Shown here piece after piece: positions 10,458-42,284 of a DNA stretch of 64,000 nt (the stretch's first letter is position 1; the number at the start of each line of letters is the position of its first letter). The position numbers and the translations under genes were made by a program. The DNA lies in the NCBI RefSeq assembly GCF_009914755.1, contig NC_060926.1; one strand, given 5' to 3'. The notes under the pieces were generated by a model. That model had not been told where the DNA came from. It saw nothing but the letters and a program-made list of their open reading frames with translations, and searched no databases. The DNA is from the human T2T-CHM13v2.0 reference genome, Homo sapiens.

Positions 10458-10580
10458 AGGAAGGAAGGAAGGAAGGGAGGGAGGGAGGGGAAGGGAGAGA
10501 GAGAGAGAGAGAGAGAAAGAAGAAAAGAAAGAGGGAGAGAAAAAGAGAAAGAAAGGAAGGAAGCAAGAAAGGAAAAAAAC
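10458..10580. repeat. Polypurine (GGAA)n/(GA)n/(GAAA)n simple repeat inside the L1MA
   Basis: AGGAAGGAAGGAAGGAAGGGAGGGAGGGAGGGGAAGGGAGAGAGAGAG..., an almost pure A/G strand. Confidence 0.95.
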
Positions 10581-11638
10581 TAGTGGCCAATATCCTTGAT
10601 GAAGATATGAAGATAGATGGAAAAATCTTCAGCAAAATGCTAGCAAATAAAATTCTCCAACACATTATATCAAGTGAGATTAATCTCTGGGATGGAAGGA
10701 TGATTCAACATACACAAGTCAATACATATGATGTATCATATTAACAAAATGAAAAACAAAGACCATATTATCAATTCATTAGGTGCAGAAAAGGTAATTG
10801 AGAGAATTCAACATTTTTTTTTGTGATAAAAACTGTCACCAAATTAAGTATTGAAGAAATGTACCTAAACACAATACAGGCCATATTGAAAAGTTCACAG
10901 CTAACATTAAAGTCAACAGTGAAAAGTCTTTCCTTAAAGATCTGGAACAAGAAAAGGATGCCCACCCCATCTACCTCTGTTCAATGTAGTATTGGGAGTC
11001 CTTGTCAGAGCAATTAGGCAGGAGAATGAAACAAAAGGCATGCAAATAGGAAAGAAAGGAGCAAAATTGTTTACTTTCAGAGAGCAGTCTTTCAGAAATT
11101 ATTTGCTGATGATATGACATTATATAATAGAGAAAACCCTAAAGACTCCACCAAAAAACTGTTAGAACTAATAAATGAATATAGTAAAGTTGCAGGATAC
11201 AAAATAAACACACAAAAATCAGAAGAGTTTTTATACACTAATAATGAATCATCTGAAAAATAAATTAAAAGAGCAATCCTATTTAAAAGAGCTAAAAAAA
11301 GAAATTATATACTTAGAATAAATTTACTGAAGAAGGTGAAAAACCTGTACACTCAAAATGTAAAACATCAGTGGGAGAAACTAGATACAAATAAATGGAA
11401 AAATACCTTGTGTTCATGGATAAGAATAGTTAATATTGTCAAAATATCCATACTGCTCAAAGTGATCTAGAGATTCTATGCAATCACTAGCAAAATTCCA
11501 ATATCTTTCTTTTATAGAAAAATAAAAAAATCCTAAAATTTGTATGGAGCTGCAAAAAAACCCCAAATAGCCAAGGCAATCAGAAGCTAAGAACACCAAG
11601 CTGGAGGTATCACATTACCTGATTTCAAACTATACTAA

Positions 11639-11991
<353 letters not shown>

Positions 11992-12285
11992 TTATTTTTA
12001 TTTTTTTAAAACAATGCCTCACTCTGTTGCCCAGGCTGGAGTGCAGTGGCATGAACATGGCACACCGAGGCCTCAATTTCCTGGGTTCAAGTAATCCTCC
12101 CACCTCAGTCTCCTGAGTAGCTGAGACCACAGGCACACATCACCATGCCCAGCTGATTGTTTTATTTTTTGTAGAGATGAGGTTTTGCCATGTTGCCCAG
12201 GCTAGTCTTGAACTCCTGGGCTCAATCTTCCAGCCTCAGCTTCCCAAAGTGCTTGGATTACAGACATAAGCCACAACCCCCAGCC
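11992..12285 (-). mobile_element. AluJ
   Basis: AluJ diagnostics: TTGCCATGTTGCCCAGGCT, AACTCCTGGGCTCAA, GCTGAGACCACAGG. The flanks share AAAGCTA, where the host L1 resumes. Confidence 0.92.
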
Positions 12286-15184
12286 AAAGCTATAATAATT
12301 AAAATAGTATGCTACCAGCAAAAAATAGGAACATTGACCAATGAAACAGAATAGAGAGCCCAAAAATGAACCCATGCATGTAGAGTCAATTGATTTTCAA
12401 TAAAGTTGCCAAGAACATGCAATGGAAAAAGGACAGTTCCTTCAATAAATGGAGTTGGAAAACTGGACATCTATATATAAAAGAACAGAACTGAGCCCTT
12501 ATCTCACAGCATATACAAAAAGCTCGAAGACAAAGTCTTCAAATTAACACAATTCAACAAAGACAAAAAAGAATAAGAAAACATAAACAAAGTCTTCAAA
12601 CAGACTGGAATTATGTTCCATGACCAAACCTAAGAATAATTGGTGTTCCTAAGGAAGTAGAGAAATCTAAAAGTTTGGAAAACATATTCTGGGGAGTAAC
12701 TGAGGAAAACTTCCCTGGCCTGGCTAGAAACCTAGACATCCAACTACAAGAAGCACAGAAAACACCTGAGAAATTCATGGCAAAAAATCGTCACCTAGGC
12801 ACATTTCATCGGGTTAAACTAAATTTAAGATGAAGGAAAACATTTTAAGAGGTGTGAGACAAAACCACCAGGTAACCTATAAAAAAAAAAACAAAAAACC
12901 TATAAGATTAACAGCAGATTTCTCAGCAGAAAACCTACAAGCTAGAAGGGTCTGGGGCCCTATCTTCAGCTGCCACAAACAAAACAATTATCAGCCAAGA
13001 ATTTTGTATCCAGCAAAACTAAGCTTCATATATGAAAGAAAGATACAGTATTTTTCAGAAAAACAAATGCTGAAACAATTCACACTATCAAGCCACCACT
13101 ACAAGAATTGCTAAAAGGAGTTCTAAATCTTGAAAAAAATCCTGGAAACACATCAAAACAGATCCTCTTTAAGCATAAATCTTACAGGACCTATAAAACA
13201 AAAATACAATTACAAAACAAAAAATCAAGGTATACAGCCAACAAATAGCATGATGAATGAAATGGTACGTCACATCTCAATACCAGTGTTGAATGTAAAT
13301 GGTATAAATGCTCCACTTAAAAGACACAGAATTGTAGAATGGATAAGAATTCGCCAAACAACTATCTGCTGCCTTCAAGAGATTCACCTAACACATAAGG
13401 ACTCACACAAACTTAAGGTAAAGGGGTAGAAAGAGACATTTCATGCAAATGGACACCAAAACCAAGTAGGAGTAGCTATCCTTATATCAGACAAAACAAC
13501 CTTTAAAGCAAAAACAGTTAAAAATACAAAAAGGAAAATTATATGATGATAAAAGGTATTATCCAACAGGAAAATATCACAATCCTAAACATATATGCAC
13601 CTATAACGCTGGGGCTCACAAATTTATAAAACAATTACTATTAGATCTAAGAAATGAAAGAGACAGCAACACAATAATAGTGGGGGACTTCAGTACTACA
13701 CTAAGAGCACAAGACAGGTCATCAAGACAGAAAGTCAACAAAGAAACAATGAATTTAAACTATAGCCTGAAACAAATGGACTTAATGTATATGCAAAGAA
13801 CATTCCATCCAACAACCACAGAATATACATGCTATTCAACAGCACATGAAACTTTCTCCAAGCTAGACCATATGATAAACCACAAAAGAAGCCACAGTAA
13901 AATTAAGAAAATTGAAATTATATCAAGCACTCTCTCAGACCACAGTGGAATAAAACTGCAAATCAACTCTAAAAGGAACCCTCAAAATCATGCAAATACA
14001 GGATAAATAACCTGCTCCTGAATGATCACTAGGTCAAAAATGAAATCAAAATGGAAATTAAAAAATTATTCAAACTACACGACAATAGTGACAAAAAACA
14101 TATCAAAACCTTTGGCATACAGCAAAGACAGTGCTAAGAGGAAAGTTTGTAGCCCTAAATGCCTACATCAAAAAGTCTGAAAGAGCACAAACAGACAATC
14201 TAAGGTCATACCTCAAGGAACCAGAGAAACAATAAAAAACCAAACCCAAACCCAGCAGAAGAAAGAAAATACCAAGATCAGAGCAGAATTAATGACACTG
14301 AAACAAAATAAACAATATAAAAGATAAATAAAACAAAAAGCTGGTTCTTTGAAAAGAAAAGAAAATTGATAGACCATTAGCAACATTAACCAGCAAAAGA
14401 AGAAAGACAATACAAATAAGCTCAGTAAGAAACAAAATGGGAGATATTACAACTGACACCATAGAAATACAAAAGATCATTCAAGGGTACTATAACACCT
14501 TTATGTGCATAAACTAGAAAACCTAGAAGAGATGGATAAATTCCTGGAAAGATACAACCCTCTGAGCTTAAATCAGGAAGAATTAGATACCCTGAAAAGG
14601 CCAATAACAAGCCACGAGATTGAAATGGTAATTAAAAAATTACCAACAACAAAAAAGCCTAGGACCAGATGTATTCACAGCAGAATTCTACCAGACATTC
14701 AAAAAAGAATTGGTACCAATCCTATTGACACTATTACACAAGACAGAGGAAGAGGGAACCCTCCCTAAATCATTCTAAGAAGCCAGTAACACCCAAATAC
14801 CGAATCCAGGAAAAGACATAACGAAAAAAGAAAACTACAGACCAATATCCCTGATGAACACAGATGAAAAATCCTTAGCAAAATACTAGCTAACCGAATC
14901 CAACAACATATCAAAAAGATAATCCACCATGATCAAGTGAGTTCCATACCAAGGATGCAGGGATGGTTTAACATATGCAAGTCAACAAATGTGATACACC
15001 AAATAAACAGAATTAAAAATAAAAATCACATAATTATCCCAAATGAAGAAAAAGCATTTGACAAAATCCAGCCTCCCTTTATAATTAAAACTCTCGGCAA
15101 TATCAGTATAGAGGGATATACCTCAATATCATAAGAGCCATCTATGACAAACCCACAGCCAACATAATACTGAATGGGGGAAAG

Positions 15185-15547
15185 TTGAAAGCATTCCCTC
15201 TGAGAACTGGAACAAGACAAGGATTTCCATTCTCACCACTCCTCTTCAACATAGTACTGGAAGTTCTAGCCAGAGCAATCATACAAGAGAAAGAAATAAA
15301 GGGCATCCATATAGGTAAAGGGGAAGTCAAACTGTTGCTCTTTGGTGATGATATGATTGTTTACCTAGAAAACCCTAAAGACTCCTCCAGAAAGCTCCTA
15401 GAACTGATAAAAGAATTCAGCAAATTTTCTGGATACAAAATTAATGTACACAAATCAGTAGCTCTTCTATACGCCAACAGCAACCAAGCTGAGAATCGCA
15501 TAAAAAACTCAACCTTTTTTCCAATAACTGCAAAAAGAAATAAATAA
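15185..15547 (+). pseudogene. L1 ORF2 reverse-transcriptase core fragment (dead; FGDD instead of FADD)
   Basis: ORF track: [23 protein letters not shown]...[15 protein letters not shown]...[10 protein letters not shown]. Flanked by stops and frameshifts. Confidence 0.9.
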
Positions 15548-16874
15548 ATAAGCACTTTGGAATCCACCTAACCAAGAAGGTTAAAGACCTCTACAAGAAA
15601 AACTGTAAAACACTGCGGAAAGATATCATAGACAACACAAACAAGTGGAAACAAATCCCATGCTCATGGAAGGGTAGGATCAATGTTGTGAAAATGACCA
15701 TACTGCCAAAAGCCACCTACCAAATCAATGCAATTCCCATTGAAATATCACCATCATTCTTCACAGAAATAAAAAAATTTCTAAAGTTCATATGAAACCA
15801 AAAAAGAGCCTGCATAGCCAAAGCAAAAATAAGCAAGGAGAACAAATCTGGAGGTATCACATTACCTGATATCAAACTATAAGGCTATAGTCACCAAAAC
15901 AGCATGATACTGGTATAAAAATAGACACATAGACCAATGGAACAGAATAGAGAACCCAGAAATAAACCCAAATGCCTACAGCAAACTGATCATTGACCAG
16001 GCAAACAAAAACCTAAAGTGCTAGGAAAATTGGCTAGCCACATGTAGGAGAATAAAACTGGATCCTCATGTATGACATTATACAAAAATCAACTCGAGTT
16101 GGATTAAGGACTTAAATCTAAGACCTGAAACTACAAAAATTCTGAAAGATAACATTGAAAGAAACCCTTGTAGACATTGGCTTAGGCAAGGATTTCATGA
16201 TGAATAACCAAAGAAAATGCAATAAAAACAAAGATAAATTACCGGGACTTATTCAAACTAAAGAGCTTCTGCACGGCAAAAGGAACAGTCAGCAGAGTAA
16301 ACAGAGAACCCACAGAGTGGGACAAAATCTTCACTATCTATACATCTGACAAATGACTAAAATCCAGAATCTACAATGAACTCAAACAAATCAACAAGAA
16401 AACAACAAACCGATCAAAAATTGGGCTAGGAAAATAAATAGACAATTCTCAAAAGAAGATATACAAATGGCCAACAAACATGAAAAAAATGCTAAATATC
16501 ACTAATGTTCAGGGATATGGGAATCAAAACCACAATGCAATACCACCTTACTCCTGCAAAAATGGCCATAATCAAAAAATAGTCGATGTTGGTGTGGATG
16601 TGGTGAACAGTGAACACTTCCACACTGCTGGTGGGAATGCAAACTAGTATAACCACTATGGAAAAAAGTGTGGAGGTTCCTTAATGAACTAAAAGTAGAA
16701 CTACCATTTGATCCAGCAGTCCCACTACTGGGTATCTACACAGAGGAAAGTAAATCATTATACAAAGGATACTTGCACATACATATTTATAACAGCACAA
16801 TTCACAATTGCAAAAATGTGGAACCAACCCAAATGCCCATCCATCAATGAGTGTATAAAGCAACTGATTATTTT

Positions 16875-16876
16875 AT

Positions 16877-16928
<52 letters not shown>
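16875..16928. repeat. (TA)n microsatellite in the L1PB 3' region
   Basis: TATATACATACATACATATATATA..., with about 20 pure TA units. Confidence 0.95.
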
Positions 16929-16930
<2 letters not shown>

Positions 16931-17320
16931 ACACGATGGAATAGTACTCAGCCATAAAAAATAATTAATTTATGGCATTTGCAGTGACCTGGATAAGATT
17001 GGAGACTATTATTCCAAGTGAAGTAACTCAGGAATGGAAAAATAAACATCTCATGTTGTCACTCATAAGTGGGAGCTAAGCTGTGAGGATGCAAAGGCAT
17101 AAGAATGACACAGTGAACTTTGGGGACTCAGGGGAAAAGGGTAGAAAGGGGTTGAGGGATAAAAGACTACAAGTAGGGTGCAGTATATACTGCTTGGATG
17201 ATGGGTGCACCAAAATCTTACAAATTGCTGCTAAAGAACTTACTCATGTAACAAAACACCATCTGTTCCCCAAAAACTTATGGTAATAAAAATACTAAAA
17301 AAATTAAAAATAAATTTAAA

Positions 17321-17671
17321 AAATCAACTCAAAATGAATTAAACACTTAAATGTAAAACCAGAAACTGCAAAACTAGTAGCAGAAAACACAGGAGAAAAA
17401 CTACATGACATTTGTCTGGGAATTGATTGCTTTTACCCCAAAAGTGCAAGCAGCAAAAGCAAAAATAGACAAATGGGATGTCTTCTGCACAGCAAAGGAA
17501 ACCATGAAAACGATACAGAAACCACTGTCAGATTGGAAGAAAACATCTGCAAATCATACACATTTGATAAGAGATAAATATCTAAAATATATAAGAAGCT
17601 CAAACAGCTCACTAGCAAGAAAAGAAACAAAAGATTTTAAAAATGGACAAGGGATCTGAATAGACATTAAA

Positions 17672-17711
<40 letters not shown>

Positions 17712-18097
17712 TCAATGTTGCTAATCATTAGAGAAATGTAAATGAAAACCGCAATGAAATATCATCTCACACCTTCAGAATGGCTATTATCAAAAGACAA
17801 AAGATAATTATTGGCAAAAATGTACAAAAAAAAAGGGAACACTCGTATACTGCTAGTATCAATGTAAATTAGTAGAGCCATTATGGAAAACTCTATGGAA
17901 GTTCTTCAAAAAACTAAAAATTGTACCATCACATGATCCAGTAAAACAACTTCTGGATATCTACCCAACATATTTGAAATCAGTTTGTCAGAGATGGCTG
18001 CACCCCCATGTTGCAGCACTATGCAAAATAGCCAAGGCATGGAATCAACATAAATGTTTATTAACAGATGATTGGATAAAGAAAATGTTATACATAT
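17321..18097 (+). mobile_element. L1MA host element, part 2 (ORF2 C-terminal region), 3'-truncated
   Basis: AATCAACTCAAAATGAATTAAACACTTAAATGT...TTTGAAATCAGTTTGTCAGAGA...GGATAAAGAAAATGT. Contains a (TA)n at ~17672-17709. Confidence 0.85.
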
Positions 18098-21000
18098 AGT
18101 TCATATATATGGTATTTGTAAAAAAGTTCATATATATACTGTTTCATTTCATTCTTATGCCTTTGCATCCTCATAGCTTAGCTCCCACTTATGAGTGACA
18201 ACATACGATGTTTGGTTTTCCATTCCTGAGCTACTTCACTTAGAATAATAGTGATTATGATTCCAGTCTCATCCAAGTTGCTGCAAAGGCCATTAATTCA
18301 TTCATTTTTATGGCTGACTAGTATTTCATCATATACACATACCATAGTTTCTTTATCCACTCGTTGATTGATGGGCATTTGGGTTGGTTCCACATCTTTA
18401 CTATTGCTAATTGTGCTGCTATAAATATGTATGTGCAAGTATCATTTTGTATAACAACTTATTTTCCTCTGGGTAGATACCCAATAGTGGGATAGCTGGA
18501 TCAAATGGTAGTTCTACTTTCAGGTCATTAAGGAATCACCACACTTTTTTCCATAGTAGTTTACATTCCCACCAACAGTGTGGAAGTGTTCCCTGTCACC
18601 GCATCCATGCCAACTCCTCTTACTATTTTTTTTTATAATGTCCATTCTTGAAGGAGCAAGGTGGTATTTCACTGTGGTTTTTATTTGGATTCCGCTGATC
18701 ATTTGTGATGTTGAGCATTTTTTCATATGTTTGTTGGCCATTTTGTGTATTTTCTTTTGAGAACTGAGAATTCATTTCCTTAGCCCACTTTTTGGTAAGA
18801 TTGTTTGTTTTCTTCTTGATAAGTTGTTTGAGTGTGTTGTAGATTCTGGATACTAAACTTTAGTCAGCTGTATAGATCGTGAAGATTTTGTCCCACTCTG
18901 TGGGTTCCCTGTTTACTCTGCTGACTGCTCCTTTTGCCGTGCAAAAAATCTTTAGTTTAAATAAGTCCCAGCAATTTGCCTTTGTTTTTATTGCATTTGC
19001 CTTTGAGTTTGTTGTCATGAAATCCTTGCCTAAGCCAATGTCTGGAAGGGCTTTTCCAATGTTATCTTCTGGAATTTTATAGTTTCAGGTCTTAGATTTA
19101 AGTCCTTAATCCATCTTGAGTTGATTTTTGTATAATGTCAGACATAAGGATACAGTTTCATTCTCCTACATGTGGCTAGCCAGTTATCCTAGCACCATTT
19201 GTTGAATAGGGTGTCCTTTCCCCACTTTAGGTTTTTGTTTGTCATGTCAAATATCAGTTTGCTGGAAGTATTTGGGTCTATTTCTGGGTTCCCTATTCTG
19301 TTCCATTGGTCTATGTGCCTATTTTTATACCAGTATCATGCTGTTTTGGTGACTATAGCCTTATAGTATAGTTTGAAATCAGGTAATATGATGCCTCCAG
19401 ATTTGTTCTTCTTGCTTAGTCTTGCTTTGGCTATGCAGGCTCTTTTTTTGTTTCATATGAATTTCAGATTTTTATTTCTGTGAAGAATGATGGTGATATT
19501 TCAATGGGAATTGCATTGATTTGGTAGGTGGCTTTTGGCAGTATGGTCATTTTCACAATATTGATTCTACCCTTCCATGAGCATGGGATTTGTTTCCATT
19601 TGTTTGTGTTGTCTACGATTTCTTTCTGTAGTATTTTGCAGTTTTTCTTCTGGATGTATTTCACTTCCTTGGTTAGGTATATTCTGAAGTATTTTATTTT
19701 TTTACAGCTATTGGAAAAAAGGTTGAGTTTTTTATGTGATTCTTAGCTTGGTTGCCATTGGTGTATAGAAGAGCTACTGATTTGTGTACATTAATTTTGT
19801 ATCCAGAAAATTTGCTGAATTCTTTTATCAGTTCTAGGAGCTTTCTGGAGGAGTCTTTAGGGTTTTCTAGGTAAACAATCATATCATCACCAAAGAGCAA
19901 CAGTTTGACTTCCCCTTTACCTATATGGATGCCCTTTATTTCTTTCTCTTGTATGCTTGCACTGGCTAGAACTTCCAGTATTATGTTGAAGAGGAGTGGT
20001 GAGAGTGGGTATCGTTGTCTTGTTCCAGTTCTCAGAGGGAATGCTTTCAACTTTTCCTCATTCAGTATTATGTTGGCCGTGGGTTTGTCATAGATGGCTT
20101 TTATTACATTGAGGTGTGTCCCTTGTATGCCAATATTGCTGAGTTTTAGTCATAAAGCAATGCTGGATTTTGTGAAATGCTTTTTCTCCATCTATTGAGA
20201 TGATCACGTAATTTTTGTTTTTAATTCTGTTTATGTGGTGTATCATATTTATTGACTTGCATATGTTAAAACATTCCTGCCTCCTTGGTATGAAACCCAC
20301 CTGATCATGGTGGATTATCTTTTCGATATTGTTGGATTTGGTTAGCTAGTGTTTTATTAATGATTTGTGCATCTATGTTCATTAGGGATATTGGTTTGTA
20401 GTTTTCTTTTTTTAGTTATGTCTTTTCCTGGTTTTGGTATTAGGTTGATACTGGCCTCATAGAATGAAACTATTCTCTTTTTTTCTCTATCTTGTGGAAT
20501 AGTGTCAATAGGATTGGTACCAATTCTTTTTTGAATGTCTGGTAGAGTTCTGCTGTGAATCTGTCAGGTCCTGCACTTTTGTTGTTTGTTTGTTAATTTT
20601 TTAATTACCATTTAAATCTTGTTGCTTCTTATTGGTCTGTTCAATGTATCTAACTCTTCCTGGTTTAAGCTTGGAGGGTTGAATCTTTCTGGGAATTTAT
20701 CCATCTCTTCTAGATTTTCTAGTTTACAGGCATACAGGTGTTCATAGTAGCCTTGAATGATCTTTTGTATTTCTATGGTGTCAGTTGTAATATCTCCCAT
20801 ATTGTTTCTTACTGAGCTTATTTGTATTGTCTCTCTTCTTTTGCTGGTTAATGTTGCTAATGGTCTATCAATTTTATTTATCTTTTCAAAGAACCAGCTT
20901 TTTGTTTTGTTTATCTTTTGATTGTTTATTTTGTTTCAGTTGCATTAATTCTGCTCTAATCTTGGTAATTTTCTTTCTTCTGCTGGTTTTGGGTTTGGTT

Positions 21001-21340
21001 TGTTCTTGTTTCTCTAGTTCCTTGGGGTGTGACCTTAGATTGTCTGTTTATGCTCTTTCAGACTTTTTGATGTGGGCATTTAGGGCTATGAACTTTCCTC
21101 TTAGCACCACCATTGCCGTATCCCACAGGTTTTTTGTTTGTTTGTTTTGTTCATTTGTTTCTCAATATTGTCATTCAGTTCGAATAATTTTTTAATTTCC
21201 ATTTTGATTTCGTTTTTGACCCAATAATCATTCAGGAGCAGGTTCTTTATTTTTCCTGTATTTGCATAATTTTGAGGGTTCCTTTTGGTACTGATTTCCA
21301 GTTTTATTCCACTGTGGTCTGAGAGAGTGCTTAATATTAT

Positions 21341-22003
21341 TTAAATTTTCTTAAGTTTATTGAGGCTTGTTTTGTGGTCTATCATATGGTCTAGCTTGTA
21401 GAAAGTTCCATGTGCTGTTGAATAAAAGGTATATTCTGTAGTTGTTGGGTAGAATGTTCTGTAAATGTCTGTTAAGTTCATTTGTTCCAGCATATAACAT
21501 ACATTTATTGTTTCTTTGTTGACTTTCTGTGTTGATGACCTGTCTAGTACCGCTAGTGAAGTATTGAAGTTCCCCACTATTATTATGTTGCTCTCTATCT
21601 CATTTCTTAGATCTATTAGTAATTGTTTTATAAATTTGGGAGCTCCAGTGTTAGGTGCATATATGTTTAGGATTGTGGTATTTTCCTGTTGGACAAGGTC
21701 TTTTATCATTATATAACTTTCCTCTTTGTATTTTTTAACTGCTGTTGCTTTAAAGTTTGTTTTGTCTAATATAAGAATAGCTACCTCTACTTGGTTTTGG
21801 TGTCCATTTGCATGAAATGTCTTTTTCCACCCATTTACCTTAAATTTGTGTGAGTCCTTATGTGTTTGGTGAGTCTCTTGAAGGCAGCAGATAGTTGGTT
21901 GGTGAATTCTTATCCATTCTGCAATTCTGTATCTTTTAAGTGGAGCATTTATGCCATTTATATTCAACAATAGTACTGAGATGTGAGGTACCATTCCATT
22001 CAT
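21341..22003 (-). pseudogene. L1 ORF2 APE-type endonuclease domain fragment (220 aa open stretch)
   Basis: MNGMVPHISVLLLNINGINAPLKR...CCLQETH...LNIYAPNTGAPKFIKQ...IVGNFNT...YKLDHMI. GDFN appears as GNFN, and the frame ends in a stop. Confidence 0.9.
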
Positions 22004-22375
22004 TGTGCTGTTTGTTGCCTGTATACCTTGGTTTTTTGTTTTCTGATTTTTTTAAATTGTATTTTTGTTTTATAGTTCCTGTGAGATTCATGATTTAAAA
22101 AGGTTCTGTTTTGATGTATTTCCAGGACTTCTTTTAAGATTTAGGGCTCCTTTTAACAGTCCTTTGAGCAGTTCTTGTAGTTTGGGGGTGATGAATTCTC
22201 TCAACATTTGTTTTTCTGAAAAAGACTGTCTCTTTCCTTCATTTATGAAGCTTAGTTTTGCTGGTTACAAAATTGTGGTTGATAATTGTTTTTGTTTAAT
22301 GAGGCTGAAGATAGAGCCCAGACCCTCCTAGCTTGTAGGGTTTCTGCTGAGAAATCTGCTGTTATCTAATAGGTT

Positions 22376-22442
22376 TTAGATATAGACATAGATATAGATA
22401 TAGATATAGATATATAGATATAGATAATGATATACATATAGA
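22376..22442. repeat. (TAGATA)n simple repeat in L1PB ORF1
   Basis: TAGATATAGACATAGATATAGATATAGATATAGATA... Confidence 0.9.
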
Positions 22443-24124
22443 TTACCTGGTGCTTTTGCCTCACAGCGCTTAAAATTCTTCCCTTAATCTTAACTTTAGC
22501 TAACTTGATAACAATGTGACTAGGTGATGATCTTTTTGTGATAAATTTCCCAGGTGTTCTTTGAGCTTCTTGTATTTTGATGTCTAGGTCTCTAGAAAGG
22601 CTGGGGAACTTTTCCTCAATTATCCCCCAAATATGTTTTTCAAACTTTTAGATTTCTCCTCTTCCTCAGCAATGCCAATTTTTCTTAGGTTTGGTCATTT
22701 AACAAAGCCCAGACATCTTGGAGGCTTTGTTTGTATTTTCTTATTCTTTTTTCTTTGTCTTTGTTGAATTGGGTTAATTCTAAAACCTTATCTTCAAGCT
22801 CTGATGTTCTTTCTTTTGGCTGTTCAATTCTATTGCTGAGACTTTCCAGAGCATTTTGCATTTATATAAGTGCATCCATTGTTTCCTGAAGTTTTCATTG
22901 TCTTTATTTATGCTCTCATTGAAAAGTTTTTGCTTCACTTTTTGTGTCATTTTTTTTTATTTCCTTAATTTGGGCTTTACCTCTCTCTTGTGCCTCCCTG
23001 GTTAGCTTAATAACTAACCTTCTGAATTATTTTTCAGGTAAATCAGGGATTTTTTTCTTGGTTTGAATCCATTGCAGGTGAGCTAGTGTGATTTTCTGAG
23101 TGTGTTAAAGAACCTCGTTTTGTCATATTACCAGAGTTTGTTTTCTGGTTCTCTCTCATTTGGGTAGTAGAGCTCAAGGCTGTTGTTCTGATTCTTTCGT
23201 TCCACAGCATGCTCCCTTGATGTAGTATTCTCTCCCTTTTCCTACGTATGTGGCTTCCTGAGAGCCAAGCTGTAGTGGTTGTTATCTCTCTTCTGGATCT
23301 AGCCACCCAGCAAATTTACCAGGCTCCAGGCTGGTACTGGGGGTTGTCTGCACAGAGTCCTGTGGTGCGAACCATCTGCAGGTCTCTCAGCTGTGGATAG
23401 CAGCACCTGCTCCAGTGGAGGTGGCAGGGGGATGTTGGTTGTTTCATGCACTATTTTTGTGCTAGTAGGCTTCCTGCCAGGAGGTGATACTTTCCAGAGA
23501 GCATCAGTTGTGGTCGTATGGGAAGGAATAGGCGGTGGGCGGGGCCCTAGAATCCCAAGAGTATATGCCCTTTGTCTTCGTTTACAGGGTGGGTAGAGAA
23601 GGACCATTAGGTAGGGGCAGGGCTGGGCCTGCCTGAGCTCAGACTCTCGGTGGGTAGGTCTTGTTGCAGCTGCTATGTGGGGGATGGGAGTGAGGTTCCC
23701 AGGTCAACAAAATTATGTTCCTATGAGGATTGTGGCTGCATCTTGTGTCATGCAGGTTGTCAGGGAAGTGAAGCAAAGTCGGCAGTCACAGGCCTCACCC
23801 AGCTCCCATGCAACCCAAAGGGCCGTTTCACTTCCACCATGCCCCCGCAACAGCACTGAGTCTGTTTCCAGGCAGCGGGTGAGCAGGGCTGAAAACTTGC
23901 CACAGGCTACCCACCCCCAGCTGCAAAAGTAAGCAGGGCTTTCACTCTTCCCCCAACCTGTGGAGTCTGCACATTGGATTTATGCCCTCCCCTGAGTTCT
24001 GGCCAGGAGACTTCTTGATAGATTCAAATTGTTATAAAGCTCAGCTGGAGGTTTCCTTCTCCCTGTGGCCTCTTCCCAGTGCCTCTGGCCACACTCCCCA
24101 AGGACTCTTGTGAGGCAAAGGAAT

Positions 24125-24592
24125 ATTAGAAAAGACACCAAAAACACAAGCAACAAAAGAAGAAATATATGTAAATTGGACTTCATTAAAAAAAAATTGT
24201 GCACCAAAAGACCATTAAAAAAGTGACACCCACAGAATGGGACAGAACATTTACAAATCATGTATCTGATGAAGGGCTTGTATCCAGAATTTATTAAAAC
24301 AAAAACTTTTATAATAAAATAATAAATGAACACATAACCTAATTAAAGAATGGGCAAAGGATCGGAATAGAAATTTATCCAAGAAATATATGCAAATGGC
24401 CAGTAAGCATCTGAAAAGATGCTCAACATCATTAGTTATTAGAGAAAGCAACTCAAAACCACATGAGATTCTACCGCACACTAATTAGGATAGCTAGAAT
24501 CAAAAGCCAGATAACAACAAATGCTGGTAAGGATGTAAAGAAGTTAGAAGCCTCATACACTGCCAGTGGAAAAGTAAAATTGGTGCAGTCAC
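24125..24592 (+). mobile_element. Old L1 (L1MB/L1MD-type) ORF2 3' fragment
   Basis: ACACCAAAAACACAAGCAACAAAAG...ATGGCCAGTAAGCATCTGAAAAGATGCTCAACATCATTAG...AAATTGGTGCAGTCAC. Confidence 0.8.
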
Positions 24593-39404: not shown

Positions 39405-40722
39405 ATTTTTTTTAATTTTTATTTTCAAATATTTTATTTCTCATTCTTTTTTTTAATATACTTTAAGTTCTGGGATACACGTGCAGAATACGCAGGTTTG
39501 TTACAAAGGTATACACATGCCATGGTGTTTTGCTGCACCCTTCAACCCATCGTCTACATTAGGTATTTCTCCTAATGCTACCCCTCCCCTAGCCCCCACA
39601 CCCCTGACAGGCCCCTATGTGTGATCTTCCCCTCCGTGTGTCCATGTGTTCTCATTGTTCCACTCCTACTTATGAGTGAGAACATGCAGTGTTTGGTTCT
39701 CTGTTCCTGTGTTAGTTTGCTGAGAATGATGGTTTCCAGCTTCATCCATGTCCCTGCAAAGCACATGAACTCATCTTTTTTTATGGCTGCATAGTATTCC
39801 ACAGTGTATATGTGCCACATTTTCTTTATCCAGTATATCATTGATGGGCATTTGGGTTGGTTCCAAGGCTTTACTATAGTGAACAGCGCTGCAATACACA
39901 TACGTGTGCATATGTCTTTGTAGTAGAATGATTTATAATCCTTTGGGTATATACTCAGTAATGGGATTGTTGGGTCAAATGGCATTTCTGGTTCTAGATC
40001 TTTGAGGAATTACCACACTGTGTTCCACAATGATTGAACTAATTTACACTCCCACCAACAGTGTAAAAGCATTCCTATTTCTCCACATCCTCTCCAGCAT
40101 ATGTCGTTTCCTGACTTTTTAATGATCGCCATTCTAAATGGCATGAGATGGTATCTCGTTGTGGTTTTGATTTGCATTTCTCTAATGACCAGTGATGATG
40201 AGCTTTTTTTCATATGTTTGTTGGCTGCATAAATGTCATCTTTTGAGAAGTGTCTGTTCATATCCTTTGCCCATTTTTTTGATGGGGTTGTTTGTTTTTT
40301 TCTTGTAAATTTGTTTAAGTTATTGTAGATTCTGGATATTAGCCCTCTGTCAGAAGGATAGATTGCAAACAGTTTCTCCCATTCTGTAGGTTGCCTGTTT
40401 ACTCTGATGACAGTTTCTTTTGCTGTGCCGAAGCTCTTTAGTTTAATTAGATCCCATTTGTCAATTTTGGCTTTTGTTGCCATTGCTTTTGGTGTCATTG
40501 CTTTTGGTGTTTTAGTCATGAAGTCTTTGCCCATGCCTATGGACTGAATGGTATTGCCTAGGTTTTCTTCTAGGGTTTTTATGGTTTTAGGTCTTACATT
40601 TAAGTCTTTAATCCACCTTGAGTTAATTTTTATATAAGGTGTAAGGAAGGGGTCCAGTTTCAGTTTTCTGCATATGGCTAGCCAGTTTTCTCAACACCAC
40701 TTGTTAAATGGGGAGTCCTTTC
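39405..40722 (-). mobile_element. L1PA (L1PA6-8-like) 3' segment with poly(A) tail
   Basis: T-rich tail, 3'UTR (CTTTAAGTTCTGGGATACACGTGCAG...), and ORF2 C-terminal ORFs 39578-39985 and 40010-40534 (CWRGCGE..HCWWEC motif). Confidence 0.95.
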
Positions 40723-42284
40723 ACCACTGATACCACAAAAATACAAACTACCATCAGAGAATACTAGAGACACCTCTATGCAAATAAACTAGAAAATCTA
40801 GAAGAAACAGATAAATTCCTGGACACATACACCCTCCCAAGGCTAAACCAGGAACAAGTCAAATCCCTGAATAGACCAACAACAAGTTCTGAAATTAAGG
40901 CAGTAATTAATAGCCTACCAACCAAAAAAGGCCCAGGACCAGATGGATTCACAGCAGAATTCTAGCAGAGGTACAAAGAGGAGCTGATACCATTCCTTCT
41001 GAAACTATTCCAAACAACAGAAAAAGAGGGAATCCTCCCTAATTCATTTTATGAGGCCAGCATCATCCTGATACCAAAACGGGGCAGAGACACAACAATA
41101 AAAAGAAAATTTCAGGCCAATATCACTGATGAACATTGATGCAAAAATCCTCAATAAAATACTGGCAAACAGAATCCAGCAACACATCAAAAAGCTTATC
41201 CACCATGATCAAGTCAGCTTCATCCCTGGGACGCAAGGCTGGTTCAACATGCACAAATCAATAAATGTAATCCATCACATAAACAGAACCAATGACAAAA
41301 ACCACACGATTATCTCCATAGACGCAGAAAAGGCCTTTGATAAAATTCAACACCCCTTCATGCTAAAAACTCTCAATAAACAAGGTAATGATGAAACGTA
41401 TCTCAAAATGATAAGAGCTATTTATGACAAGCCCACAGCCAATATCACACTGAATGCACACAAACTGGAAGCATTCCCTTTGAAAACTGGCACAAGACAA
41501 GGATGCCCTCTCTCACCACTCCTATTCAACATAGTATTGCAAATTCTGGCCAGGGCACTCAGGCAAGAGAAAGAAATAAAGGGTATTCAAACAGGAAGAG
41601 AGGAACTCAAATTGTCTCTGTTTGCAGATGACATGGTTGTATATTTAGAAAACCCCATTGTCTCAGTCCAAAATCTCCTTACGCCAATAAGCAAATTCAC
41701 CAAAGTCTCAGGATACAAAATCAACTTTCAAAAAATCACAAGCAATCCTACACACCAACAATAGATGAACAGAGAGCAAAATCATGAGTGAACTCCCATT
41801 CACAACTGCTACAAGGAGAATAAAATACCTAGGAATACAACTTACAAGGAATTTGACGTACTTCTTCAAGGAGAACTACAAACCACTGCTCAAGGAAATA
41901 AGAGAGGACACAAACAAATGGAAAAACATTCCATGCTCATGGATAGGAAGAATCAATATCATGAAAATGGCCACGCTGCCCAAAGTAGTTTATAGATTCA
42001 ATGTTATCCCCATCAAGCTACCATTGACTTTCTTCACAGAATTAGAAAAAACTACTTGAAAGTTCATATGGAACCAAATAAGAGCCCATATAGCCAAGAC
42101 AACCCTAAGCAAAAAGAACAAAGCTGGAGGCATCACACTACCTGACTTCAAACTATACTACAAGGCTACAGTAATCAAAACAGCATGGTAATTGTACCAA
42201 AACAGATATATAGACCAATGGAACCGAACAGAAGCCTCAGAAATAACGCCACACATCTACAACCATCTGATCTTTGACAAACCT
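40721..42284 (+). mobile_element. Inverted 5' segment of the same L1PA (twin-priming inversion)
   Basis: Sense ORF2 RT region (ORF 41129-41764, [12 protein letters not shown]) ending CTTTGACAAACCT at the TSD. Confidence 0.95.

What the first reader, a model, noticed from the sequence alone, without database searches (positions are those of the whole stretch)
15280..15472. 193-bp perfect inverted match spanning the RT active site, both copies FGDD
Seen: 15280-15472 is the exact reverse complement of 19763-19955, and both translate [64 protein letters not shown]. Established: the L1 consensus reads [24 protein letters not shown]...SKVSG, and the L1PA in this window has RQEKE, FADD and KVSG. Several private substitutions are therefore shared. 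Even at 90% background identity, a 193-bp perfect run has probability ~1e-9 per site. Inference: this is the youngest conversion tract or inversion breakpoint, possibly species-specific or still polymorphic. It is near the length needed for efficient homologous recombination.
Basis: partly seen in the sequence, partly recalled or inferred. Interest (0 to 1): 0.75.

Follow-up and report, generated by a model that had tools for sequence, protein, structure and literature searches.

The report
Gene-conversion tract between inverted L1 copies
Two old, dead L1 retrotransposon copies lying tail-to-tail about 1 kb apart have recently copied a 193-base stretch from one to the other, an ordinary but unusually clean example of sequence exchange between neighbouring repeats.

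Summary
15280-15472 is the exact reverse complement of 19763-19955: 193 bp that cannot be extended by a base. It sits in a 4.6-kb inverted L1 pair, 12521-17108 against 22800-18149, that is otherwise about 83-88% identical. In 5000 permutations the longest perfect run never exceeded 82.

Against 28 other genomic copies of the same L1 family, the tract carries 10 shared derived bases and no arm-to-arm difference. Six of the 10 occur in at most 1 of the 28 copies, including the base that turns FADD into FGDD.

The two arms are separate retrotransposition insertions, not a DNA-level inverted duplication. The best reading is therefore recent non-allelic gene conversion between them. It is the youngest patch in a mosaic of older patches along both arms.

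The spacer keeps its ancestral orientation, so an inversion breakpoint is not supported for this haplotype. Zero differences put the tract's age below roughly 5-16 My, depending on the mutation rate assumed. Human specificity and polymorphism could not be tested. The mechanism is known and the locus is an intergenic fossil, so interest is low.

The parts
15280..15472 (+). 193-bp perfect tract, copy in the left L1 arm (ORF2 reverse-transcriptase region, FGDD at 15341)
   Evidence: Exact reverse-complement identity with 19763-19955, not extendable. 10 shared derived sites, 0 differences, 193 columns scored.
19763..19955 (-). 193-bp perfect tract, copy in the right L1 arm (FGDD at 19894)
12521..17322 (+). 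Left arm: 5'-truncated L1P copy with an A-rich 3' tail (about 17285-17322), inserted into an older L1M
   Evidence: Family copies match from 12521 to about 17283-17327. The flanking L1M pieces are collinear across the insertion. ORF2 is broken: the longest open stretch is 176 aa.
18149..24118 (-). Right arm: longer L1P copy reaching about 1.3 kb further 5' than the left arm, but lacking its last ~200 bp and poly-A
   Evidence: Family 5' regions match 22437-24118. Homology with the left arm stops at 18149 = left 17108. The longest open stretch is 236 aa.
15686..15775 (+). Second perfect run (90 bp; partner 19469-19558), with 9 shared derived sites, 7 of them in at most 1 of 28 family copies
   Evidence: The 43-mer 15708-15750 is found only at the two arms even with 3 mismatches allowed.
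15499..15526 (+). 28-bp identical patch (partner 19709-19736) holding 6 shared derived sites, flanked by ordinary arm differences
   Evidence: The 28-mer is found only at the two arms with 2 mismatches allowed.
17323..18148 (+). Spacer: fragment of an older L1M, continuing the L1M pieces at 10540-11645 and 12286-12520
   Evidence: Sensitive blastn. Upstream pieces correspond to left-arm L1 coordinates 14795-15881 and about 15881-16088. The spacer piece corresponds to 16088-16919, same strand.

Best explanation
Two copies of the same old primate L1 family inserted independently, in opposite orientation with their 3' ends facing each other, about 0.8-1 kb apart. Both have long been dead. Since then they have repeatedly exchanged short stretches by intrachromosomal non-allelic (ectopic) gene conversion.

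The mechanism I infer is this. A break or stalled fork in one arm is repaired by copying from the inverted arm 4.3 kb away, through synthesis-dependent strand annealing or template switching, without crossover. The 193-bp tract is the most recent such patch. One arm's accumulated private mutations, including the FADD-to-FGDD change, overwrote the other arm's sequence, and no new mutation has arisen since.

Shown here: the perfect identity, its statistical excess, the shared private bases, their uniqueness in the genome, the independent insertion structure, and the patchwork of shared-derived and differing sites. Inferred: the repair mechanism, the non-crossover outcome and the date. Not determinable from one haplotype: the direction of transfer.
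For: (1) The 193-bp run is exact and not extendable. No run longer than 82 appeared in 5000 permutations.

(2) In an alignment with 28 other genomic copies, the tract has 10 shared derived sites and 0 differences in 193 columns. Six of the 10 occur in at most 1 of the 28 copies. Immediately outside, ordinary private differences resume at 15274, 15279, 15473, 15478 and 15479. About 5% shared derived sites matches the 4.9-5.9% private divergence of a single arm. This is what is expected if one arm was copied onto the other late in their history.

(3) The best other genomic match to the 193-mer is 95% identical, and most are 91-93% (40 of 4180 candidates scored). Six of 6 k-mers carrying combinations of shared derived bases occur exactly only at the two arms. 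No third donor and no sub-subfamily therefore exists in this assembly.

(4) The arms are independent insertions. The left arm is 5'-truncated at 12521, has an A-rich tail and sits cleanly inside a collinear L1M. The right arm runs about 1.3 kb further 5' and ends differently at its 3' end. The flanks 17323-18148 and 24135-24591 are only 62% alike. Overall arm identity, 87.9%, ranks 42nd of 435 pairs among these copies.

(5) Shared-derived and differing sites are segregated into patches. The runs test gives z = -4.4 within 15265-15910 and z = -4.45 in the rest of the arms. Their densities are negatively correlated, with Spearman -0.49 to -0.84 after the two perfect runs are removed.

(6) The literature agrees. 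Non-allelic conversion between transposable-element copies is elevated for copies within 10 kb (PMC6598467, passages). The mean human tract is about 250 bp (bioRxiv 10.1101/135152, abstract and passages).
Against: - The pre-conversion state was not seen, because no outgroup species or second haplotype was available. Non-reciprocity, direction and date are therefore inferred.
- Conversion is reported to slow as copies diverge (10.1101/135152). These arms differ by 12-17%, so a recent event is somewhat unexpected.
- The excess of shared derived sites along the whole arms is 16.4 strict sites per kb. That is matched by two of 378 control family pairs. L022/L030 (16.5) is an alignment artefact with 237 differences per kb. 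L033/L034 (14.5) looks like a real pair. Subfamily structure can therefore give similar totals. Only the k-mer tests argue against that here, and they cover 6 places.
- In 15473-15531 both arms carry more derived bases than the simple model predicts: 6 shared plus 3-4 private in about 60 bp.
- The raw reads behind the assembly were not checked.
Confidence: 0.85

Rival explanations
1. The tract marks the crossover point of a homologous-recombination inversion between the inverted arms, as in retrotransposon recombination-mediated inversion. The identity would then be heteroduplex repair at the breakpoint.
For: Inverted L1 pairs do mediate inversions between human and chimpanzee: 49 events, each producing chimeric elements (PMC2603318, passages). 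The geometry here, inverted arms around a 4.29-kb interval, would allow it.
Against: The spacer L1M (17323-18138) lies on the same strand as the L1M pieces upstream of the left arm and continues them, and the left arm's A-rich tail abuts it. The interval is therefore in its ancestral orientation in this haplotype. An even number of inversions would be needed. A crossover by itself does not make the arms identical.
Confidence: 0.07
2. The identity is inherited. The arms would be an inverted DNA duplication, or a mother and daughter L1, and the tract simply escaped mutation.
For: Shared derived sites occur all along the arms: 39 strict sites outside 15265-15910. The arms are about 4 points closer to each other than to other copies. 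The combinations are unique to this locus.
Against: The arms have different 5' and 3' ends, and the left arm shows the hallmarks of retrotransposition. Zero differences in 193 bp against 12-17% elsewhere cannot be chance survival. Shared and differing sites are patchy and anticorrelated rather than uniform. A mother-daughter relation could still contribute part of the background shared sites.
Confidence: 0.04
3. It is an assembly or polishing artefact that copied one arm's sequence onto the other.
For: No call supports this. It is listed only because the reads could not be inspected.
Against: The arms differ by 12-17% around the tract, so long reads would place unambiguously. That placement argument is my inference, not a test. 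The tract edges coincide with normal private differences. Several smaller patches show the same pattern.
Confidence: 0.03

Closest known systems
Non-allelic (interlocus) gene conversion between neighbouring transposable-element copies, described mainly for Alu pairs within 10 kb and for duplicated genes
   Same: A short patch a few hundred bases long becomes identical between two nearby paralogous repeats and carries one copy's private mutations into the other. The tract length is close to the reported mean of about 250 bp (10.1101/135152). The copies lie within 10 kb (PMC6598467, passages).
   Different: The partners are L1 copies in inverted orientation with 12-17% background divergence, higher than the <5% range used to estimate rates in gene duplicates (10.1101/135152, passages). 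The direction of transfer and the pre-conversion state are not known.
Arm-to-arm gene conversion in large palindromes, such as the Y-chromosome palindrome P6 (PMC3723533, search listing and abstract only)
   Same: Inverted arms separated by a spacer are homogenised by intrachromosomal conversion.
   Different: Palindrome arms are more than 99.9% identical DNA duplications that are continually homogenised. Here the arms are independent insertions, mostly diverged, with only small islands of identity.
[quoted passage not shown]
   Same: The substrate is the same: an inverted L1 pair a few kb apart.
   Different: That outcome is a crossover that flips the interval and leaves chimeric elements. 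Here the interval is in ancestral orientation.
L1 5' inversion by twin priming
   Same: Two L1 segments lie in opposite orientation next to each other.
   Different: Twin priming joins non-overlapping parts of one L1 (from my own knowledge). Here both arms cover the same 4.6 kb of L1. A likely twin-priming element does lie elsewhere in the window, at 39663-42278.

Membership tests
Non-allelic gene-conversion tract | Two paralogous sequences at distinct loci | tested here: met
   Arms 12521-17108 (+) and 22800-18149 (-). They are separate insertions.
Non-allelic gene-conversion tract | A segment significantly more similar than the rest of the alignment (GENECONV-type test) | tested here: met
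   The observed run is 193. The maximum in 5000 permutations was 82.
Non-allelic gene-conversion tract | Derived variants shared by the two copies inside the segment but absent from other family members | tested here: met
   10 shared derived sites, 6 of them in at most 1 of 28 copies. The 37-mer is unique to the two arms genome-wide.
Non-allelic gene-conversion tract | Non-reciprocal change of one copy relative to its state before the event (outgroup or other haplotype) | not testable with these tools
   No primate or other human assembly could be reached. states that the genome has no relatives held.
Non-allelic gene-conversion tract | Tract length in the known range | tested here: met
   The tract is at most 193 bp, and at least 158 bp between the outermost shared derived markers 15282 and 15439. 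The published mean is about 250 bp (10.1101/135152).
Inversion by recombination between inverted repeats | The interval between the repeats is inverted relative to the ancestral arrangement | tested here: not met
   The spacer L1M is on the same strand as the upstream L1M pieces and collinear with them. An even number of inversions cannot be excluded.
Inverted segmental duplication / palindrome | The arms share their end points, or homology extends into non-repeat flanks | tested here: not met
   The left arm ends at 12521 and 17322 with an A-rich tail. The right arm ends at 24118 and 18149. The flanks are only 62% alike.
L1 twin-priming inversion | Two adjacent, oppositely oriented, non-overlapping parts of one L1 | tested here: not met
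   Both arms cover the same L1 coordinates over 4.6 kb.

The most novel reading that the evidence does not exclude
The pair is a still-active recombination substrate. The 193-bp conversion would be human-lineage-specific or still segregating. The island of perfect identity it created is now long enough to seed recurrent flipping of the 4.29-kb interval 15473-19762. More generally, closely spaced inverted L1 fossils would keep renewing small islands of identity for tens of millions of years despite 12-17% overall divergence, which would make them a self-sustaining nursery for small inversions.
Probability: 0.15. Interest if true: 0.45.

Novelty: new member of a known kind. Interest (0 to 1): 0.22.

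Why it matters
In itself it matters little. The locus is intergenic (no gene is annotated in the window, per the hub's table), and both L1 copies are dead.

It is a clean worked example of three points:
- Neighbouring inverted repeats keep exchanging sequence long after insertion, even at 12-17% divergence.
- Such exchange spreads private mutations between copies. This can mislead subfamily assignment, age estimates and variant calling in repeats.
- It creates a stretch of perfect inverted identity of about the size thought necessary for homologous recombination. That size threshold is recalled from the literature, not tested here.

Tried and rejected
- Inverted duplication was rejected from the different arm ends, the left arm's A-rich tail inside a collinear L1M, and flanks only 62% alike.
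- A rare sub-subfamily as the source of the shared bases was rejected for the 6 places tested. All 6 k-mers occur exactly only at the two arms. Other places were not tested.
- Parallel CpG mutation is unlikely. Many of the shared derived changes are transversions.
- Selection on the reverse-transcriptase motif was rejected. ORF2 is fragmented in both arms, and the shared state is a derived FGDD.
- Donor arm: I found no way to tell from one haplotype.
- The published inversion catalogue I looked up by DOI is not held. Whether an inversion is recorded here remains open.
- I did not search the literature for this specific locus.
- I did not assign the L1 subfamily, because no repeat library is available.

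Full report
**Observation.** Window 15280-15472 equals the reverse complement of 19763-19955 over 193 bases, and the match cannot be extended by one base on either side. Another L1 in the window reads RQEKE and FADD at 41561-41632.

**Setting.** The tract lies inside a large imperfect inverted repeat, with arms 12521-17108 (+) and 22800-18149 (-).
- BLAST identities of the collinear blocks are 87.3% over 3184 columns, 84.5% over 863, 80.9% over 367 and 84.1% over 182.
- A global alignment has 4755 columns with 790 mismatched or gapped columns, 83.4% identity.
- After 193, the next-longest perfect runs are 90 (15686-15775), 50 and 49.
- In 5000 permutations of the match/mismatch columns the longest run averaged 39 and never exceeded 82. 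The analytic expectation for 193 is about 5e-13, and for 90 about 6e-5.

**What the arms are.** Both are copies of one old primate L1 family.
- Searching the window's own genome (the hub identifies it as T2T-CHM13, 3.1 Gb) with 14600-16100 returned the right arm as the best non-self match at 87%. Many unlinked copies followed at 82-86%. Only 40 of 19943 candidates were scored.
- Family copies match the left arm from 12521 to about 17283-17327, where an A-rich tail lies.
- Upstream of 12521 and downstream of 17322 lie pieces of a much older L1M, about 62-67% identical to the arms. These pieces are on the same strand and collinear: 10540-11645 and 12286-12520 correspond to arm coordinates 14795 to about 16088, and 17323-18138 to 16088-16919.
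- The left arm is therefore an ordinary 5'-truncated retrotransposition insertion into that L1M.
- The right arm extends about 1.3 kb further 5', to about 24118. It stops at 18149, at the point corresponding to left 17108, so it lacks about 200 bp and its poly-A.
- The sequence beyond its 5' end (24135-24591) is only 62% like the spacer.
- Neither arm can be a DNA copy of the other as they now stand. I read them as independent insertions.
- Their overall identity in the family alignment, 87.9%, ranks only 42nd of 435 pairs.
- Both ORF2s are broken, with longest open stretches of 176 and 236 aa.

**Shared private bases.** I aligned both arms with 28 other genomic copies. I classed each column by whether each arm carries the commonest family base.
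- Of 3946 scored columns: 3294 were unchanged, 194 left-private, 231 right-private, 24 different in both arms, 102 ambiguous and 101 shared derived.
- Within the 193-bp tract there are 10 shared derived sites, 0 differences and 4 ambiguous columns.
- Six of the 10 occur in at most 1 of the 28 copies: 15282, 15310, 15313, 15321, 15345 and 15425.
- The G at 15345, which makes FGDD, occurs in 0 of 28.
- Private differences resume at 15274 and 15279 on one side, and at 15473, 15478 and 15479 on the other.
- The 5% density of shared derived sites equals one arm's private load of 4.9-5.9%. This fits a late copy of one arm onto the other.

**Uniqueness in the genome.**
- The best other match to the 193-mer is 95% identical, and most are 91-93%. 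Only 40 of 4180 candidates were scored.
- Five more k-mers carrying combinations of shared derived bases were searched, at 15499-15526, 15708-15750, 14362-14403, 16306-16334 and 13434-13469. Each has exact hits only at the two arms. Near matches elsewhere lack the combination.

**A mosaic, not a single event.** Shared derived sites are in excess along the whole arms.
- The arms have 16.4 strict sites per kb. Across 378 family pairs the median is 1.48 and the 99th percentile 9.1.
- Two control pairs come close. L022/L030 (16.5) is an alignment artefact with 237 differences per kb. L033/L034 (14.5) appears real, so subfamily structure can give such totals. The k-mer tests argue against that here, for the places tested.
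- Shared and differing sites are segregated into patches. The runs test gives 21 runs against 40.3 expected (z = -4.4) in 15265-15910, and z = -4.45 in the rest of the arms.
- Their densities are negatively correlated, with Spearman -0.49 to -0.84 after the two perfect runs are removed.
- This fits repeated short conversions of different ages, or patchy repair of longer heteroduplexes. A mother-daughter relation between the two L1s could contribute to the background and is not excluded.
- One point is unexplained: 15473-15531 carries 6 shared plus 3-4 private derived bases per arm in about 60 bp, more than a simple clock predicts.

**Inversion.** If a crossover in the tract had flipped 15473-19762, the spacer L1M would now be on the opposite strand from the L1M upstream of the left arm. 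It is not. This haplotype is therefore un-inverted, or has flipped an even number of times.

**Date.** With no difference in 193 bp, the 95% upper bounds are 15.5, 7.8 and 4.6 My for 0.5, 1.0 and 1.7e-9 substitutions per site per year. The medians are 3.6, 1.8 and 1.1 My. The rates are recalled values, not taken from a call. The probability of zero differences if the event predated 6.5 My is 0.29, 0.08 and 0.014 respectively. A human-lineage event is therefore plausible but not shown.

**Comparison with what is known.**
- Non-allelic conversion between transposable-element copies is described, with higher rates for copies within 10 kb (PMC6598467, passages read).
- In human gene duplicates the mean tract is about 250 bp, and the rate falls as copies diverge (bioRxiv 10.1101/135152, abstract and passages read).
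- Inverted L1 pairs cause inversions between human and chimpanzee (PMC2603318, passages read).
- This locus is a new instance of a known process. Its only mildly unusual aspect is the high background divergence of the partners.
- I did not search for this locus in print. The supplements of inversion catalogues, which might list it, were not seen.

**Verdict.** Recent gene conversion between independently inserted inverted L1 copies is the best explanation (confidence 0.85). The inversion-breakpoint reading is not supported for this haplotype. Species specificity and polymorphism remain untested. Interest is low.

Noticed in passing
window 18100-18160: The right-arm L1 has no poly-A and lacks its last ~200 bp. 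It abuts the old L1M fragment at about 18138-18149 through a short AT-rich stretch. This looks like a later deletion or rearrangement junction at the centre of the inverted pair. Its origin is unexplained.
   Followed up: partly
window 16018-16020: The left arm lacks about 28 bp that are present in the right arm and in the other family copies. BLAST alignments to most fetched family loci break at this point.
   Followed up: no
window 39663-42278: Another L1 shows an internal inversion. 40723-42278 matches arm coordinates 14449-15997 in + orientation, while 40690-39663 matches 16025-17075 in - orientation. This is the pattern expected from twin priming. This element carries RQEKE and FADD.
   Followed up: no
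window 16874-16928 and 17664-17710: Two (TA)n microsatellites, one inside the left arm and one inside the spacer L1M. They are self-complementary and match each other.
   Followed up: no
window 11674-12300: Two adjacent Alu-like repeats interrupt the old L1M just upstream of the left arm. They match other copies in the window at 75-84%. The Alu label is from recall and was not tested.
   Followed up: no
window 15473-15531: This stretch has an unusually high total of derived bases in both arms: 6 shared plus 3-4 private in about 60 bp. A simple conversion-plus-clock model does not explain it.
   Followed up: partly
loci L033 (G000:C8:66317605-66322134) and L034 (G000:C23:45580617-45585168): These two unlinked family copies share 14.5 strict derived sites per kb, nearly as many as the two arms. 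They probably mark a minor subfamily.
   Followed up: no
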